64,000 bases of DNA from the human T2T-CHM13v2.0 reference genome, Homo sapiens: NCBI RefSeq assembly GCF_009914755.1, contig NC_060928.1; one strand, 5' to 3'. The notes under the pieces were generated by a model. That model searched no databases, was not told where the DNA came from, and saw nothing but the letters and a program-made list of their open reading frames with translations. A program made the translations under genes and the position numbers. Shown in pieces: positions 6,297 to 41,931 of the stretch; the first letter of the stretch is position 1, and every line of letters begins with the position of its first letter.

Positions 6297-7251
6297 TGAT
6301 ATGATTTGGCTGTGTCCCCACCCAAATCTCAACTTGAATTGTATCTCCTAGAATTCCCATGTATTTTGACAGGGACCCAGGAGGAGGTAATTGAAGGGAG
6401 CCAGTCTTTCCTGTGCTATTCTCATGATAATGAATAAGTCTCATGAGATCTGATGGGTTTATCAGGGGTCTCCACTTTTGCTTTTTTCTCATTCTCTCTT
6501 GCCACCAATATGTAAGAAGTGCCTTTCCCCTTCCACTATGATTGTGAGAATTTCCCCAGCCATGTGGAACTGTACGTCCCACTAAACCTCTTTCTTTTGT
6601 GAATCACCCAATCTTGGGTATGTTTTTATCAACAGTATGAAAACAAATACAGTAAATCGGTACTAGTAGAGTGAGTATTTATTCAATACCTGTATCCTCA
6701 TTGTATCTAGGAAGTAACTAGCTTGCTTTTGATTTTACAGGCTCAGAGGCAGAAGAAGGAACTTGCCTTGTCTCAGATGAGATTTTGGACTGTGGACTTT
6801 TGGATTAATGCTGAAATGAGTTAAGACTTTGGGGAATTGTTGAGAAGGCATGATTGGTTTTGAAATATGAGGACATGAGATTTGGAGGGGCCAGAAGAGG
6901 AATGATATGGTTTGGTTGTGTCCCCACCCAAATTTCAACTTGAATTGTAGCTCCCAGAATTCCCATGTGTTGTGGAAGTGACCCAGGGAGAGGTAATTGA
7001 ATCATGGGGGCTGGTCTTTCCTGTGCTATTCTTGTGATAATGAGTAAGTCTCATGATATCTGACGGATTTATCAGGGGTTTCCGCTTTTGCTTCTTCCTC
7101 ATTCTCTCTTGCTGCCGCCATGTAAGAAGTGCCTTTTGCCTTCTGCCATGATTGACCTTCTCCAGCCATGTGGAACTGTAAACCTCTTTCTATTGTAAAT
7201 TGCCCTGTCTCAGGTATGTCCTTATCAGCAGTGTGAAAATAGACTAATACA
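6297..7251 (+). mobile_element. THE1 element: LTR 6297-6651, internally deleted internal region 6652-6902, LTR 6903-7251
   Basis: Two THE1 LTRs (TGATATG..TGTGTCCCCACCCAAAT...AATACA); internal 5' and 3' ends present; perfect 5-bp TSD ATTGC at 6292-6296 and 7252-7256. Confidence 0.93.
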
Positions 7252-17683: not shown

Positions 17684-17978
17684 TATAATCAAGCCAAAAC
17701 ACATAGAGTATGATATAAACACATATAATATAATCAAGCCAAAACACATATAATATCTAATGTAGATGCCATGATTCTCAATAGAGGATATAAAGATGTT
17801 CCCAAAATCAAACCAACAGGCAGGTGTATTTTCTACCTCTGTAAATATAAACACATATAATATAATCAAGCCAAAACACATATAATATCTAATTGTAGAT
17901 ACCATGATTCTCAATAGAGAATATAAAGGTGTTCCCAAAATCAAACCAACAGGCAGGTGTATTTTCTACCTCTGTAAA
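17684..17978. repeat. Tandem duplication with ~132-bp period, plus a third partial 22-bp copy
   Basis: 17713-17844 is nearly identical to 17845-17978; TATAATCAAGCCAAAACACATA occurs three times. Confidence 0.95.
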
Positions 17979-18718
17979 ATCAACCAATACATTAATTTGA
18001 ATAGGTAGATACAGCTACTCATACCTGCTACATATTTCTTTCTCTAGTCTATCTTAATTATTTTGATTTTTGGACTCTGTGTCAAACATATGACTTGTGT
18101 TTTTTTTTTTAATAAATGATAGTAAATGAACATCACCCATGTGAGCCCATATATGTGGCAAATCACAATAAGATACTGGGATTTTGGAAGGCCTATATGG
18201 AAAAACCAAATCACCTTCAGATATAACAACCTGTTTTCCCTGAGATTGTCATTCAAGAACAAGGGCTTTTAATAATCACTGTCATCATTGTAGTTTGTCA
18301 TGCATGCCTAACATGCTCTTTTTTTAAAATAACAAATTAACAGACACTTAAGATTAACCTATCCTGTGCTACATAAACTACTCTGGAATTACCTGAGAAG
18401 TAATGTTTAAATCTCTATAAAGGAATAGAAAATGGTGGGGAATGGAGACGTGTGCCCTTTAAAAATAATAAAATAAATGAAGACTCAAGAATATTCAATC
18501 ATTTATTAGGATGAGCATACTAAAAGTGCTCCAGAAATCAAAGAAAATAAAGCAAAGTGATATAAGTTAATGTAATTGTATTACTGGCTTTCAGGGCCTC
18601 GAGGCCAGGCGTTCAAAGCTAGACATTTGGCACTGTATTTTATTCACAATAAACTGTTAGTCTAATGAAGAAAACTAAAACATTTTTATTTTATTTATAT
18701 TTATTTGACATATTTGGA

Positions 18719-35520: not shown

Positions 35521-36395
35521 AGCATCACAAAGGGGGAACTATGAGAACACATTTAAGATAAGTGAAGATATGTATTGAATATAACACCAATTGCACATGC
35601 CACATAAAAACATGGACAAATAGCCTTGTAAGACATATGAATCATAACCTACCCCAATTATAACCCTTTCTAAGCAAACTGCTGCACCCACTGCTTTATA
35701 TCATAATTGTCTTATAGTCTGTTTGTGCTCCACTCCAAAGCCATAAAGACTGGACTAGCGATTAATACCTAAATCAATGATTTGGCAATTATTTTATGGT
35801 CTGCCAAAATAGAAAATTTATAACAGTTAAATTCTTTTTTACAAATTTCACCTGCAAGCCAGACTTTTGTCTCATATGAAAGGTCTGGGTCTGCCATTTC
35901 ATGATTTTTGTTGTATGTAACAAATAAGGAGAGAGAGGACATAATAAAGAAAGGTGAAGATAAAGAAACAGAAGAGAACAGAAAAGAAAAAGGGAATAAT
36001 GGATATGAGAAGAGAAGGAAAGAGGCAAATAGAAAGATAGGCTTGAACACACAGGATCTGAGATTTACAAAGCAGTGAGTGACTATGCTATACAGAGATG
36101 TAGAGCAGAAAGGAAGGCACCCAGCTAAGAAGATGAGGATGATGCACTCATTGTATCTGTGGAATAAGAAGTGGGCATGTAAAGATTGAGACCATGTAAT
36201 GTGAGAGAGCAAAAAAATGGCCCTGCCTACAGTGATCTCGTACTGGAAAGTTCTATTTAGAAGTTATTTTTCTGAGCGACAAAATGTAGAAGGCATCATA
36301 AAATATGAGGAATGGTGTTAACCCTTACTTGGTAATCAGTGTTCTTAATTGTGTTACGGGAAACACCCTAGAAGGTAATATAAAGCTTGTTTATT

Positions 36396-36697: not shown

Positions 36698-36798
36698 TCT
36701 ACACATACTGACACAAAAAGGGAGATTAGGTTTAGTTTGGTTGATGACAGAATACAGTTTTTTCTAAGTATTGTCTCAGTCTCAATTAATTGTAGCTA
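36692..36798 (-). repeat. Inverted ~107-bp copy of 31687-31793
   Basis: Reverse complement aligns end to end (CAATTAATTGA.ACTGAGACAATACTTAGAAAAAA...CTGTCATCAACCAAACTA.ACCTAATCTCCCTTTTTGTG). Confidence 0.92.
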
Positions 36799-37087
36799 GC
36801 AGTTTATTTTGTTAATCATTTCAAAAAACCAGCTCCTGGATTCTCTGATTTTTTGAAGGTTTTTTTGTGTCTCTATCTCCTTCAGTTCTGTTCTGATCTT
36901 AGTTATTTCTTGTCCTCTGCTAGCTTTTGAATTTGTTTGCTCTTGCTTCTCTAGTTCTTTTAATTGTGATGTGAGGGTGTCTATTTTAGATCTTTCCTGC
37001 TTTATCCTGTGGGCATTTAGTGCTAAAATTTCCCTCTAAACACTGCATTTGCTGTGTCCCAGCGATTCTGATACGTTGTGTCTTTGA

Positions 37088-37236
37088 GAATAATGGATAT
37101 GCGAAGAGAAGGAAAGAGGCAAATAGAAAGATAGGCTTGAACAGACTGGATCTGAGATTTACGAAGCAGTGAGTGACTGTGCTAAGAGGAGGTTAGAGCA
37201 GAAAGGAAGGCATCCAGCTAAGAAGATCAGGAGATG
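37088..37236 (+). repeat. Direct ~150-bp copy of 35994-36144 inserted in L1 ORF2
   Basis: GAATAATGGATATG.GAAGAGAAGGAAAGAGGCAAATAGAAAGATAGGCTTGAACA...CCAGCTAAGAAGAT present at both places. Confidence 0.95.
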
Positions 37237-37671
37237 TTATCTTGTTGATCCAGAACACCATGGCATCCTCAAGGTCATACGGAAGTTCCTTCGAGGCACT
37301 GAATGTTGAGAAGTGCTTGACACTGGCCACCACCTTCTCAATGCTGATCATATCCATGGTATAGGCCATCATCAGGGCATCCACCATCACCATGTGGGCA
37401 CTCATCATTATGGGTGCACGACTGAGGTCAGACTCTGTCATGGGGGTTTCGTTACCCTCCATCACATAGATCTCTTTCCAGGCCAGGGCCTGGAAGACAG
37501 ACTGGTGTCCCAGTAAGGTGGCCACCTGGTCCCCTTTCAGAATAAGGCTGCAGATGTGGCAGTACAGCTCGCTGGACAGGAGAAGCTTGATAACAGGCAG
37601 CTTAATGTGCTCCTGCTCATATTGGTTGACGTAGAAAGGGTCTCTGAGGTCCTTGGGGATGTTATCTTGTT
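37233..37671 (-). pseudogene. CAMSAP1: CAMSAP1 retro-fragment (exons 2-3, intronless) with back-splice-junction sequence at both ends; probable circCAMSAP1-derived pseudogene
   Basis: Open frame DNIPKDLRDPFYVNQYEQEHIKLPVIKLLLSSELYC...SKELPYDLEDAMVFWINK matches the recalled CAMSAP1 N-terminal region; GATGTTATCTTGTT repeats at 37233 and 37658, 425 nt apart. Confidence 0.9.
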
Positions 37672-37811
37672 CAAGGGCACTACAGCTTGCATTGTGTATC
37701 AGGAGCAGAAATCCAGTCCCTTCTCACTCTAGTTGAGTATCAGTACATTCCACCAACAGGCACTATACACAGCCAGGAATATCAAAGATTCCAGGAATCC
37801 AGTTTATAGTC
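37664..37811 (-). pseudogene. ZNF483: Probable ZNF483 5'UTR and start-codon fragment fused to the CAMSAP1 piece
   Basis: ATG at 37692 reads MQAVVPLNK, matching the recalled ZNF483 N-terminus MQAVVPLNKMTAISPE; preceded by acceptor-like TTTCTTTCTGCAG|G at 37811. Identity rests on 9 codons from memory. Confidence 0.65.
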
Positions 37812-37820
37812 CTGCAGAAA

Positions 37821-37855
37821 GAAACCAATGACTGCAGTTTACAGTCATTGGTTTC
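37821..37855. other. Perfect 14-bp inverted repeat (fold-back) at the insert/L1 junction
   Basis: GAAACCAATGACTG (37821-37834) / CAGTCATTGGTTTC (37842-37855), 7-nt spacer. Confidence 0.95.
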
Positions 37856-40800
37856 AAAGAACTAATTTATTTCTGCCTTAATTTAATTATCTACCCAGTA
37901 GTCATTCAGGAGCAGGTTGTTCAATTTCCATGTAGTTTGTGGTTTCAAGTGAAATTCTTAATCCTGAGTTCTAATTTCATTCTGCTGTGGTCTGAGAGAC
38001 TGTTTGTTATGATTTCCATTCTTTTACATTTGCTGAGGAGTGTTTTACTTTCAATTATGTGGTCAATTTTAGATTAAGTGTGATGTGGTTCTGAGAAGAA
38101 TGTATATTCTGTTGATTTGAGGTCAAGAGTTCTCTAGATGTCTATTAGGTCTGCTTGGTCCAGAGCTGAGTTCAAGTCCTGAATATCCTTGCTAATTTTG
38201 TGTCTTGTTGATCTATCTATTATGGAAAGTGGGGTGTTAAAGTCTCCCACTATTACTGTGTTGGAGTCTAAGCCTTTTTGTAGGTCTCTAAGAACTTGCT
38301 TTATGAATTCGGGTGTTCCTGTATTGGGTGAATACATATTTAGGATAGTGAGCTCTTGTTGCACTGATCCCTTTACCATTATGTAATGCCATTCTTTGTC
38401 TTTTTTCATCTTTGTTGGCTTAAAGTCTGTTTTATCAGAGACTAGAATTGCAACCCCTGCTATTTTTGCTTTCCATTTGCTTGGTAAATATTACTCCATC
38501 CTTTATTTTGAGCCTGTATGTGTCTTTGCACGTGAGATGGGTCTCCTGAATACAGCACACCGATGGGTCTTGACTCTTTATCCAATTTGCCAGCCTGCAT
38601 CTTTTAATTGGGGCATTTAGCCCATTTACATTTAAGGTTAATATTGTTATGTATAAATTTGATCCTGTCATCATGATGCTAGCTGGTTATTTTGCACATT
38701 AGTTGATGCAGTTTCTACATAATGTCATTGATCTTTGTATTTTGGCATGTTTTTGCAGTGGCTGGTACTGGTTTTTCCTTTCTATATTTAGTGCTTCCTT
38801 CAGGAGCTCTTGTAATGCAGGCCTGGTGGTGACAAAATCCCTCAACATTTGCTTGTCTGTAAAGGATTTTTTTTTTTTTTCGCTTATGAAGCTTAGTTTG
38901 GCTGGATATGAAATTCTGGATTCAAAATTATTTTCTTTAAGAATGTTGAATATTGGCCACCACTCTCTTCTGGCTTGTAGGGTTTCTGCAGAGAGATTGC
39001 TGTTAGTCCGACGGGCTTCACTTTGTGGGTAAGTTGACATTTCTCTCTGGCTGCCTTTAACATTTTTTCCTTTGTTTCAACCTTGGTGAAGCTGACGATT
39101 ATGTATTTTGGTGTTGCTCTTCTCAAAGAGTATGTTAGTGGTCTTCTCTTTACTTCCTGAATTTGAACATTGACCTGCCTTGCTAAGTTGGGGAAGTTCT
39201 CCTGGATAATATCCTGAAGTGTGTTTCCAATTTGGTTCCATTCTCCCCGCCATTTTCAGGTACACCAATCAATCATAGATTTGCTCTTTTCACATAGTCC
39301 CATATTTCTTGAAGGCTTTTTTTTGTTCCTTTTTATTCTTTTTCCTCTAATCTTGTCTTCACGTTTTATTTCATTAAGTTTATCTTCAATCTCTGATATC
39401 CTTTCTTCTGCTTGATCAATTTGGCTATTGATACTTGTGTATGCTTCACGATGTTCTTGTGCTGTGTTTTTCAGCTCCATCAGGTCGTTTATGTTCTTCT
39501 CTAAACTAGTTATTCTAGTTAGCAATTCCTCCAAGATTTTTTCAAAGTTCTCAGCTTCCTTGCATTGGGTTAGAACATGCTCCTTTAGCTTGGAGGAGTT
39601 TGCTATTACCCGCCTTCTGAAGCCTACTTCTGTCAGTTCATCAAACTCATTCTCCGTCCAGTTTTGTTCCTTTGCTGTTGAGGAGTTGTGATCCTTTGGA
39701 GGAGAAGAGGCATTCAGGTTTTTGGAATTTTCAGCATTTTTGTGATGGTTTTTCCTCGTCTTCATGGATTTATCTAACTTTGATCTTTGATGCTGAGGCC
39801 CTTTGGATGGGGTTTTTCCATGGGCGTCTTTTTTGTTGATGTTGATGTTGATGTTGATGTTATTACTTTCTGTTTGTTAGTTTTCCTTCTAACAATCAGG
39901 TCCCTCTTCTGCAGTCTGCTGGAATTTGCTGGAGGCCCACTCCAGATCTGTTTGCCTGAGTATCACCAGCGGAGGATGCAGAACAGCAAAGATTGCTGCC
40001 TGCTCCTTCCTCTGGAAGCTTTGTCCTAGAGGGGAATTCACCAGATGTCAGCTGGAGCTGTTGTTGGCCCCCACCGGGAAGTGTCTCCCAGTCAGGAAGC
40101 ACAGGGGCCAGGGACCCACTTGAGCAGGCAGTCTGTCCGTTAGCAGGGCTTGAGCGCTGTGCTGGGAGATCCACTGCTCTCTTCAGAACTGGCATGAAGG
40201 AACATTTAAGCCTGCTGAAGCTGTGCCCACAGCCGCCTCCTCCCTCAGGTGCTTTGTCCCAGGGAGATGGGAGTTTTATCTCTAAGCCCCTGACTGGGGC
40301 TGCTGCCTTTCTTTCAGAGACACCTGGGCTCTGCTCAGTCCGAACTTCCCAGTAGCTTTGCTTACACTGTGAGTGGAAAACTGCCTACTTAAGCCTCAGA
40401 AACGGCGGACGCCCCTTCCCTCAAGAAGCTCCAATGTCCCAGGTTGACTTCGGACTGCTGTGTTGGCAGCAAGAGTTTCAAGCCAGTGGATCTTAGCTTG
40501 CCAGGCTCTGTGGGGGTGGGACCCACTGAGGAAGACCACCTGGCTACCTGGCTTCCACCCCCTTTTCAGGAGAGTGACTTGTTCTGTCTTGCTGGGGTCC
40601 CAGGCACCACTGAGGTATGAATAAAAACTCCTACAGCTAGCTTGCTGTTTGCTCAAATGGCAGTACAGTTTTGTGCTTGAAACCCAAGGCCCTGGTGGTG
40701 TAGGCACCCAAGGGAATCTCTTGGTCTGAGAGTTGCAAAATCCATGGGAAAAGCATAGTATCTGGGCTGGATAGCACCACCCCTCATGGCACAGTCCCTC

Positions 40801-41931
40801 ACAGCTTCTTTTGGCCAGGGGAGGGAGTTCCCTGAGCCCTTGCACTTCCCAGGTGAGGCAACGCCCCACCTTGCTTTGGCTTGCCCGCCATGGGCTGCAC
40901 CCACTGTCCAACCAGTCTCAATGAGATGAACAGGGTACCTCAGTTGGGAATGCAGAAATCACCTGCCTTCTGCATTGGTCTCCCTGGGAGCTGCAGACCG
41001 GAGCTGTTCCTATTCAGCCATCTTGCCTGGAACTTCTACTTTTATCTTCAGAAGCAATAAAAACAACAACAACAAAAAGAAATTATATCAATTTAAATAT
41101 TAAAAGAGGTGATGAATTTTTAAATAATGACAGAAAACTGAGTTGCCAGACAGGAATACTTACTGAAACATATGTACTAGAAATTCTATATTTGAAAGAA
41201 AATTTTTGTGCTTAGTTTTTCTAAAAATTATTCTTTATATTGGTGGTTTTTAAATACCTACTTTAACATGGACACATAGAAAATAATTTTACACATAATT
41301 GATATCTAGCAATCAAAACATTTTACAATTAACATTTTAAGAATATCACTATTAACATTTTAACAGCTTTGAAAATTACCTCTATGCATTTTTCCTTCCG
41401 TAAATCTAAGACATCATTTCATTTTAATTATAAATTATTCAGTATGTATTCCTAAGAGATACAATATTTTTTACAGTAACCTCAATGCTATTATATGCCT
41501 GATATGATTAAAATGCATCTTTATTATCACCTAAATCCATATCATGTTTATATTTTCCAGTTATCTCAAAAATGTCTTTTTAAAGTATTTTGGTTTAAAT
41601 TGAAAAGTGTCCATCAGTTGCATTCAGTTAATATCTCTTAACTTCTTAAAATTGATAATTTTTATTTTTAAAGTAGTTTTTTACATGTTATTTGCTAGTC
41701 CTGTGGAATTAGCCATCAACTTTGAGCTGTAGAATTTTCTATATCTTTAATTTGGCACCTCTATTCCTCATGATATTATTTACATTTTTACTCTATCTCT
41801 CATGTATTCAGTATACGGTACTTTTAGAGACTTGCTTAGACTCAAGATTAAGTTTTTTGGCAAGACCACATTATAGCTGGAGCTGTGGAATTGTTAATAT
41901 AACACTAGGAAGTACATAAGTTCTGGCTGTC

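What the first reader, a model, noticed from the sequence alone, without database searches (positions are those of the whole stretch)
37233..37671. Probable circular-RNA-derived pseudogene: one full turn of circCAMSAP1 (exons 2-3) in the genome
Seen: on the minus strand the CAMSAP1 piece reads AACAAG|ATAACATC...[425 nt]...TGGATCAACAAG|ATAACATC. The end of the piece (WINK) runs straight back into its own start, which is why the ORF track shows WINK-ITS. The 14-mer GATGTTATCTTGTT recurs exactly 425 nt apart. There is no intron, no flanking CAMSAP1 exon and no poly(A). Knowledge (recalled): CAMSAP1 exon 2 starts ATAACATC, exon 3 ends ...ATCAACAAG, and the well-known circCAMSAP1 is exons 2-3, 425 nt. 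Inference: an RT copied the circle for slightly more than one turn. The many CpG-type changes (E>K, D>N, R>H, A>T) suggest an old primate event, so this would be fossil evidence of this back-splice in an ancestral germline or early embryo. Caveats: the 5' AACAAG is shared with the ZNF483 piece and the terminal CATC with the local duplicate. I also recall circCAMSAP1 being named in earlier work on circRNA-derived pseudogenes, so this piece may already be reported.
Basis: partly seen in the sequence, partly recalled or inferred. Interest (0 to 1): 0.92.

Follow-up and report, generated by a model that had tools for sequence, protein, structure and literature searches.

The report
Known circular-RNA fossil inside break patch
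A one-turn DNA copy of the circular RNA circCAMSAP1, very likely the chromosome 4 copy published in 2016, sits with a ZNF483 piece, a copy of nearby DNA and a small hairpin inside a LINE-1 element, likely as a patch that sealed a germline chromosome break.

Summary
Window 37665-37241 (minus) is CAMSAP1 exon 2 (263 nt) spliced to exon 3 (162 nt), 425 nt, 91% identical. The next 8 nt match the exon 2 start 8/8, against 3/8 for exon 4 or intron 3. It is the only such copy my genome search found. It is already in print: Dong et al. 2016 (PMC4897178, Fig. S1C legend) describe a chromosome 4 circCAMSAP1 pseudogene of exons 2-3 that passes the back-splice junction twice, present in chimp and gorilla, absent in rhesus. 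What I add: the copy is one part of a 758-bp insert that replaces 3 nt of an otherwise colinear LINE-1, with no poly(A) or target-site duplication. The insert is a fold-back hairpin, a ZNF483 exon 2 piece, the circle and a 149-bp copy of DNA 1.1 kb away. The ZNF483 switch uses an 11/12 match across the back-splice junction, tied best of 224,825 pairs and absent from the mRNA. Best reading: a break patch made by a template-jumping reverse transcriptase. Locus known; this context was not found in my searches.

The parts
37845..41030 (-). LINE-1 5' part (5' UTR, ORF1, start of ORF2), decayed; host element left of the insert
   Evidence: 84-88% to other copies over the ORF1-ORF2 stretch up to 37845; 5' UTR best matches 78-84% among 40 of 5491 candidates scored
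37821..37855 (-). Fold-back hairpin at the left junction: 14-bp perfect arms (37855-37842 and 37834-37821), the first arm overlapping the LINE-1 end; holds a second 12-nt copy of ZNF483 sequence at 37846-37835
   Evidence: -15.6 kcal/mol, z -6.6, 0 of 200 shuffles; 12-mer match to ZNF483
37664..37820 (-). ZNF483 exon 2 piece: 128 nt of 5' UTR, the ATG (37692) and the first codons; starts right after an AG acceptor; spans no intron
   Evidence: 95% to G000:C9:123698652-123698812, only other match of this piece; acceptor context; 7 of 157 mismatches
37666..37671 (-). 5' overhang AACAAG: end of CAMSAP1 exon 3 and also ZNF483; centre of the 11/12 switch homology
37403..37665 (-). CAMSAP1 exon 2, complete (263 nt)
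37241..37402 (-). CAMSAP1 exon 3, complete (162 nt), joined to exon 2 without the intron
37233..37240 (-). 3' overhang: first 8 nt of exon 2 again (back-splice junction); last 4 nt shared with the local duplicate
37088..37236 (-). Copy of local DNA, direct orientation, 139 of 148 aligned bases identical, 4 gap positions
35994..36144 (-). Source of the local copy, about 1.1 kb from the copy and 650 bp beyond the LINE-1 end
36795..37086 (-). LINE-1 continues 3 nt after where the left part stopped, then ends without 3' half or poly(A)
   Evidence: subject positions 1501 to 1497 in L018, 1789 to 1785 in L043, 1797 to 1793 in L045/L046; junctions; no continuation found in the window

Best explanation
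A spliced copy of CAMSAP1 exons 2-3 with back-splice overhangs lies in a 758-bp four-part insert that interrupts a LINE-1, and it was likely written in as a patch when a germline double-strand break in that older LINE-1 was repaired. Shown: order and sources of the pieces, 3 nt of LINE-1 lost, no duplication of the target, no poly(A), short homologies at the joins. Inferred steps, read in the direction of cDNA synthesis (increasing window coordinates): (1) the broken end at 37086 primed on DNA about 1.1 kb away and copied 149 nt; (2) through 4 shared bases it jumped to circCAMSAP1 8 nt into exon 2, crossed the back-splice junction, copied one full turn and reached the junction again; (3) through an 11/12 homology across that junction it jumped to ZNF483 RNA and copied back to the exon 2 start; (4) the free end was joined to the other LINE-1 end by repeated short priming and fold-back synthesis, which left the hairpin. 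The likely enzyme for steps 2-3 is LINE-1 ORF2p acting without its endonuclease, with polymerase theta for step 4; enzyme identity is inference. The copy is most likely neutral and non-coding.
For: Circle: (8/8 vs 3/8 and 3/8); local alignment scores circle 690, mRNA 667, pre-mRNA 401; switch site tied best of 224,825 12-nt pairs (11/12, one other site equal) and tied best at 17 nt (14/17), absent from the exon 1-4 mRNA; published circle span of 1446 bp equals my exon 2-3 span. Patch in an existing element: LINE-1 colinear across the insert with 3 nt missing; the hairpin copies the LINE-1 bases right at the left end in reverse, which needs that end to exist as DNA (sequence); the break sequence is not the TTTT/A consensus cited in PMC5110952 (by eye). 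Age: window LINE-1 carries 88 of 1375 (6.4%) and 11 of 271 (4.1%) private non-CpG differences; the insert 7 of 257 at CAMSAP1 non-degenerate sites, 7 of 143 between the two local copies, 7 of 157 for ZNF483, about 2.5-3.0% per lineage. Class 2 templated insertions show these marks (PMC5110952); patchwork templated insertions are tied to polymerase theta (PMC12426944).
Against: Only 4 nt are unique to the back-splice, and the mRNA reading needs just one G-to-A change to reach the local duplicate (mRNA alignment ends at 37237). The age gap is not clean: the 3' LINE-1 piece (4.1%, interval 2.0-7.2%) overlaps the insert, P for equal age ran from 0.0006 to 0.11 by assumption, and subfamily differences can inflate the LINE-1 figure. 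The LINE-1 itself lacks its 3' half, poly(A) and a target duplication, so it may be an atypical insertion made in the same event. The ZNF483 piece spans no intron, so RNA origin is not shown. Polymerase theta insertions are usually under 25 bp; the 149-nt local copy is long for it. No ape or monkey genome could be searched here.
Confidence: 0.7

Rival explanations
1. Circle origin is right, but LINE-1 and insert arrived together: ORF2p primed internally on LINE-1 RNA, left it after about 290 nt for local DNA, circCAMSAP1 and ZNF483 RNA, then returned to the still-tethered LINE-1 RNA 3 nt further on.
For: All pieces are in LINE-1 sense, as expected for template switching (PMC13174262 passages); the LINE-1 has no 3' half, poly(A) or target duplication; divergence of the 3' piece overlaps that of the insert.
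Against: The hairpin copies the left LINE-1 end in reverse, hard to explain before that part existed as DNA; the left LINE-1 part is about twice as diverged as the insert; the published absence from rhesus sits badly with an element this diverged, if the LINE-1 predates the ape-monkey split (age recalled, not tested).
Confidence: 0.17
2. The CAMSAP1 piece came from linear mRNA: it starts at exon 2 and runs 4 nt into exon 4 with one later G-to-A change; ZNF483 supplies the 5' AACAAG and the local duplicate the final CATC, so the back-splice is an illusion.
For: Both overhangs are mostly shared with neighbours; the mRNA alignment covers 37667-37237 and abuts the local duplicate; a 4-mer like this has about 1% chance from base composition.
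Against: Needs both ends to fall within 4 nt of the boundaries of an abundant known circle, one extra substitution, loss of the 4-nt homology at the 3' switch, and a chance 4-nt extension of the ZNF483 homology that makes it the tied-best of 224,825 pairs on the circle.
Confidence: 0.05
3. The template was a linear RNA with repeated exons (trans-splicing or exon repetition), or the 3' overhang arose by the nascent DNA slipping back onto its own 5' junction, not by a second pass round a circle.
For: Sequence alone cannot tell a circle from a tandem exon repeat; slippage on the shared AACAAG would give the same 8 nt.
Against: Two junction crossings would need three tandem copies in a linear RNA; no exon 1 or 4 sequence is present; the exon 2-3 circle is RNase R resistant and abundant (PMC8883650 passages; Table S5 row).
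Confidence: 0.05
4. The insert is a functional element or chimeric gene (ZNF483 start fused to CAMSAP1 coding sequence).
For: The CAMSAP1 frame has no stop over 176 codons; differences are fewer at non-synonymous (20 of 333) than synonymous sites (18 of 90).
Against: The ZNF483 ATG is in another frame and closes after about 51 codons; the synonymous excess is expected from change in the constrained parent gene; 20 amino-acid changes in 141 codons; no gene or element is annotated in the window (hub note).
Confidence: 0.03

Closest known systems
[quoted passage not shown] 2016, PMC4897178, Fig. S1C)
   Same: Same parent exons 2-3, same chromosome, short overhangs at both ends, junction passed twice; my search found one such copy in the genome, so it is very likely this locus.
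   Different: The legend gives 8 nt of exon 3 upstream and 6 nt of exon 2 downstream; I find 6 exact upstream (7 of 8) and 8 downstream. The text and legends I read say nothing of ZNF483, the local copy, the hairpin or the host LINE-1, call the mechanism mysterious and the event very recent. The figure and the table pages are pictures that I could not see, so coordinates were not compared.
Class 2 templated sequence insertions / endonuclease-independent retrotransposition (Onozawa and Aplan 2016, PMC5110952)
   Same: No target duplication, no poly(A) or signal, microdeletion, microhomology, distant transcribed templates.
   Different: Reported as present in all populations examined and shared with apes, not polymorphic; three templates plus a fold-back in one insert; one template is a circular RNA.
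Polymerase theta templated insertions (PMC12426944)
   Same: Patchwork of pieces copied from the break flanks with minimal priming; iterative; fits the hairpin junction.
   Different: Usually under 25 bp and from flanking DNA; here 149 nt of local DNA and about 590 nt from two distant genes, one spliced.
LINE-1 chimeric insertions with other RNAs (PMC13174262)
   Same: Non-LINE-1 RNA pieces in LINE-1 sense next to LINE-1 sequence.
   Different: Those carry the foreign RNA at the 5' side with target duplications and arise in one event; here the foreign pieces are internal. CAMSAP1, ZNF483 and 'circular' do not occur in its text, and the two gene names not in 6 supplementary files.
Classical processed pseudogene
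   Same: Intron removed between exons 2 and 3.
   Different: No poly(A), no target duplication, no 3' end of the mRNA, non-colinear junction.

Membership tests
High-confidence circRNA-derived pseudogene (Dong 2016) | Non-colinear back-splice junction sequence in genomic DNA | tested here: met
   Exon 3 end followed by exon 2 start, 8 of 8; only 4 nt not shared with a neighbour
High-confidence circRNA-derived pseudogene (Dong 2016) | Only circle-resident exons, spliced, no flanking exons | tested here: met
   Exons 2 and 3 complete, intron absent, exon 1 and exon 4 absent
High-confidence circRNA-derived pseudogene (Dong 2016) | The matching circle is expressed | tested here: met
   From papers only: exons 2-3, RNase R resistant; 1446-bp span equals mine. 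Germline expression not found in one search listing
High-confidence circRNA-derived pseudogene (Dong 2016) | Identity with the published chromosome 4 locus by coordinates | tested here: inconclusive
   Chromosome and structure agree and one copy was found; published coordinates are in pictures
Class 2 templated insertion (break patch) | No target-site duplication; microdeletion at the site | tested here: met
   LINE-1 colinear, 3 nt lost, nothing duplicated
Class 2 templated insertion (break patch) | No poly(A) tract or signal, no TTTT/A site | tested here: met
Class 2 templated insertion (break patch) | Microhomology or added bases at junctions | tested here: met
   4 nt, 11/12 nt and 2 nt homologies, fold-back, one unassigned base at 37087
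Class 2 templated insertion (break patch) | Empty site seen in an outgroup or another allele | not testable with these tools
   No relatives held for this genome; empty state inferred from other LINE-1 copies and from divergence
Classical processed pseudogene (TPRT) | Poly(A) tail and target-site duplication | tested here: not met
circZNF483-derived piece | Back-splice junction of circZNF483 at the start of the ZNF483 piece | tested here: not met
   Upstream bases match neither the likely circle donor (found 6 nt from the predicted end), nor exon 1, nor intron 1; they are the hairpin arm
circZNF483-derived piece | Piece begins at the circle's acceptor | tested here: inconclusive
   Published span 7086 bp vs 7080 bp from this acceptor to the nearest donor, 7071 from the second AG 9 nt on
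LINE-1 subfamily L1PA7/L1PA8 (name recalled from the 5' UTR) | Diagnostic positions against subfamily references | not testable with these tools
   No repeat library here; only pairwise identities

The most novel reading that the evidence does not exclude
Both RNA pieces came from circles: a reverse transcriptase at a germline break went once round circCAMSAP1, then jumped by junction-spanning homology to circZNF483, whose acceptor is where the ZNF483 piece starts. Circular RNAs, stable and free of poly(A), would then be preferred templates for break patches, and circRNA pseudogenes would be repair scars rather than ordinary retrocopies.
Probability: 0.12. Interest if true: 0.6.

Novelty: already known. 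Interest (0 to 1): 0.3.

Why it matters
The fossil itself was reported in 2016. Its value now is mechanistic: that paper left open how an RNA with no poly(A) and no free end gets into the genome. The junctions here suggest an answer for this case: capture at a break, entry and exit by short homologies, no need for a tail. The ZNF483 homology also turns the weakest part of the evidence (shared 5' bases) into support for a circular template. It gives a direct prediction for the other human and mouse circRNA pseudogenes: no target duplications, small deletions, extra captured pieces.

Tried and rejected
Second copies of the CAMSAP1 or ZNF483 pieces elsewhere: none (a Pfam CAMSAP_CH search gave 10 matches, none at this locus). 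A circZNF483 back-splice junction or ZNF483 exon 1 upstream of the ZNF483 piece: no match. The missing 3' half of the LINE-1 or a target duplication elsewhere in the window: none; only scattered 10-11-mers; DNA outside the window was not examined. A coding chimera: ZNF483 ATG is out of frame. The source of the local copy has AGATA 9 nt before the shared CATC; deriving the overhang from it needs an 8-nt deletion plus a substitution, judged less likely than the circle but not excluded. Published coordinates: table pages are pictures. The figure 425 nt was not in the main text of PMC8883650; it rests on my exon measurement. Literature for the composite: ZNF483 with CAMSAP1 gave 2 unrelated papers; a five-term search on circular RNA, retrotransposition and template switching gave 0; circCAMSAP1 with pseudogene gave 26 papers, 20 listed, mostly reviews, seen as listing only. 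Earlier scan findings were not available, and full-length LINE-1 relatives were not obtained, so LINE-1 comparisons cover only about 1.5 kb each side of the break.

Full report
Observation. The window is human chr4 (hub note; G000:C4). A genome search with 37225-37680 found three places: the locus itself and two stretches of chr9 about 1 kb apart. I fetched that gene and defined its exons by AG and GT ends: exon 2 is 263 nt, exon 3 is 162 nt, span 1446 bp; exon 1 and exon 4 were located. The window carries exon 2 at 37665-37403 and exon 3 at 37402-37241 on the minus strand, without intron or indel, with 38 of 425 mismatches. The name ZNF483 rests on recall of its N-terminus and on a span that agrees within 6 bp with the published circ_ZNF483.

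Is it a circle? After the exon 3 end the next 8 nt match the exon 2 start 8 of 8, exon 4 3 of 8 and intron 3 3 of 8. Before the exon 2 start the last 6 nt match the exon 3 end 6 of 6, exon 1 3 of 6 and intron 1 2 of 6. Local alignment scores were 690 for an exon 3-2-3-2 template, 667 for mRNA and 401 for pre-mRNA. A further test favours the circle. Among all 224,825 12-nt pairs between ZNF483 exon 2 and the circle, the actual switch site is tied best (11 of 12, one other site equal), and it is tied best at 17 nt (14 of 17). It straddles the back-splice junction and does not exist in the exon 1-4 mRNA. A homology-guided jump from the circle explains why ZNF483 is there; the mRNA model must treat it as luck. 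I put the circle origin at about 0.9.

It is published. Dong et al. 2016 (PMC4897178; whole main text read; supplementary methods; figure legends; table pages unreadable) report a circCAMSAP1-derived pseudogene of exons 2-3 on human chromosome 4, with short overhangs at both ends, reverse transcription presumably passing the junction twice, present in all populations examined, chimp and gorilla, absent in rhesus. With one copy found in the genome, this is very likely the same locus; I could not compare coordinates. A review repeats the claim (PMC6965350 passages). PMC8883650 (passages) confirms the exon 2-3 circle and RNase R resistance but its main text does not give 425 nt.

Surroundings. 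The copy is not free-standing. On the minus strand a LINE-1 runs from about 41030 to 37845, stops, and resumes at 37086 only 3 nt further on in its own sequence, as read against other copies. It ends near 36795 with no 3' half, poly(A) or target duplication found in the window. The 758 bp between hold, in order: a fold-back whose 14-bp arm repeats the LINE-1 end in reverse and whose middle is a second 12-nt copy of ZNF483; 157 nt of ZNF483 exon 2 starting right after an AG acceptor, 128 nt before the ATG; the circle with its overhangs; and 149 nt copied from 36144-35994 (139 of 148 identical). There is no AATAAA or A run over 3 in the insert.

Age. Outside CpG contexts the three pieces differ from their sources by 15 of 379, 7 of 157 and 7 of 143. 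Per lineage this is about 2.5-3.0% (21 of 700 to 857, by assumption). The host LINE-1 differs from 11 relatives by 1202 of 12,716 (9.5%, two lineages) and has 88 of 1375 private differences left of the insert and 11 of 271 right of it, measured against 24 fetched copies. The insert thus looks about half as old as the LINE-1, with P from 0.0006 to 0.11 depending on assumptions; subfamily differences may inflate the LINE-1 value, and the short right piece overlaps the insert. By recalled primate divergence figures this points to the ape stem, older than 'very recently' suggests, and agrees with absence in rhesus.

Mechanism. Shown: pieces, order, sources, 3-nt loss, no duplication, no tail, junction homologies. 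Inferred: a break in the older LINE-1; the end at 37086 copied nearby DNA, jumped by 4 nt to the circle, went round once and reached the junction again, jumped by 11 of 12 nt to ZNF483 RNA, and was joined to the other end by fold-back and re-priming. These marks define class 2 templated insertions (PMC5110952, parts 1-3 of 4 read), and patchwork inserts copied from break flanks are linked to polymerase theta (PMC12426944 passages). I favour endonuclease-independent ORF2p for the RNA steps because about 590 nt of processive copying is long for polymerase theta inserts; this is inference. Inheritance implies a germ cell or early embryo. The main rival is a single LINE-1 insertion with three template switches and a return (0.17). 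Nothing suggests function: the ZNF483 ATG is out of frame with CAMSAP1 and no gene is annotated.

Novelty. The finding as given is already known. The composite context was not found in print in my searches (listings; PMC13174262 passages and 6 supplementary files), but the library lacks most subscription papers, and the picture in Dong's Fig. S1C may show flanking repeats. The boldest reading, two circles in one patch, rests on the ZNF483 piece starting at what is probably the circZNF483 acceptor; no back-splice junction supports it, so 0.12. Interest 0.3: a known locus with a useful, testable mechanistic addendum.

Noticed in passing
window 36795-41030 (-): The host LINE-1 keeps its 5' end but lacks about the 3' half, poly(A) and a target duplication; either a later deletion or an atypical insertion. 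Its 5' UTR also has a gap of about 60 nt against most relatives near 40325.
   Followed up: partly
window 37820 and 37846; G000:C9:123698652 and 123698661: Both ZNF483-derived stretches begin right after an AG: the main piece at the first acceptor, the 12-nt hairpin copy at a second AG 9 nt downstream. May be chance.
   Followed up: partly
window 6311-6575 and 6917-7181: Two similar stretches about 606-610 bp apart with several exact 15-19-mers; look like a pair of MaLR-type LTR pieces (name recalled, untested).
   Followed up: no
window 17684-17980: Local tandem duplication with 133-bp spacing and nested 25- and 45-bp repeats.
   Followed up: no
G000:C4:179531806-179531961 (L040): A weak CAMSAP_CH-type domain match with one TAG inside; probably a fragment of another calponin-homology pseudogene.
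   Followed up: no
PMC4897178 Fig. S1C legend: Overhang lengths are given as 8 upstream and 6 downstream; the sequence shows 6 exact upstream and 8 downstream, so they may be swapped or counted with a mismatch.
   Followed up: yes
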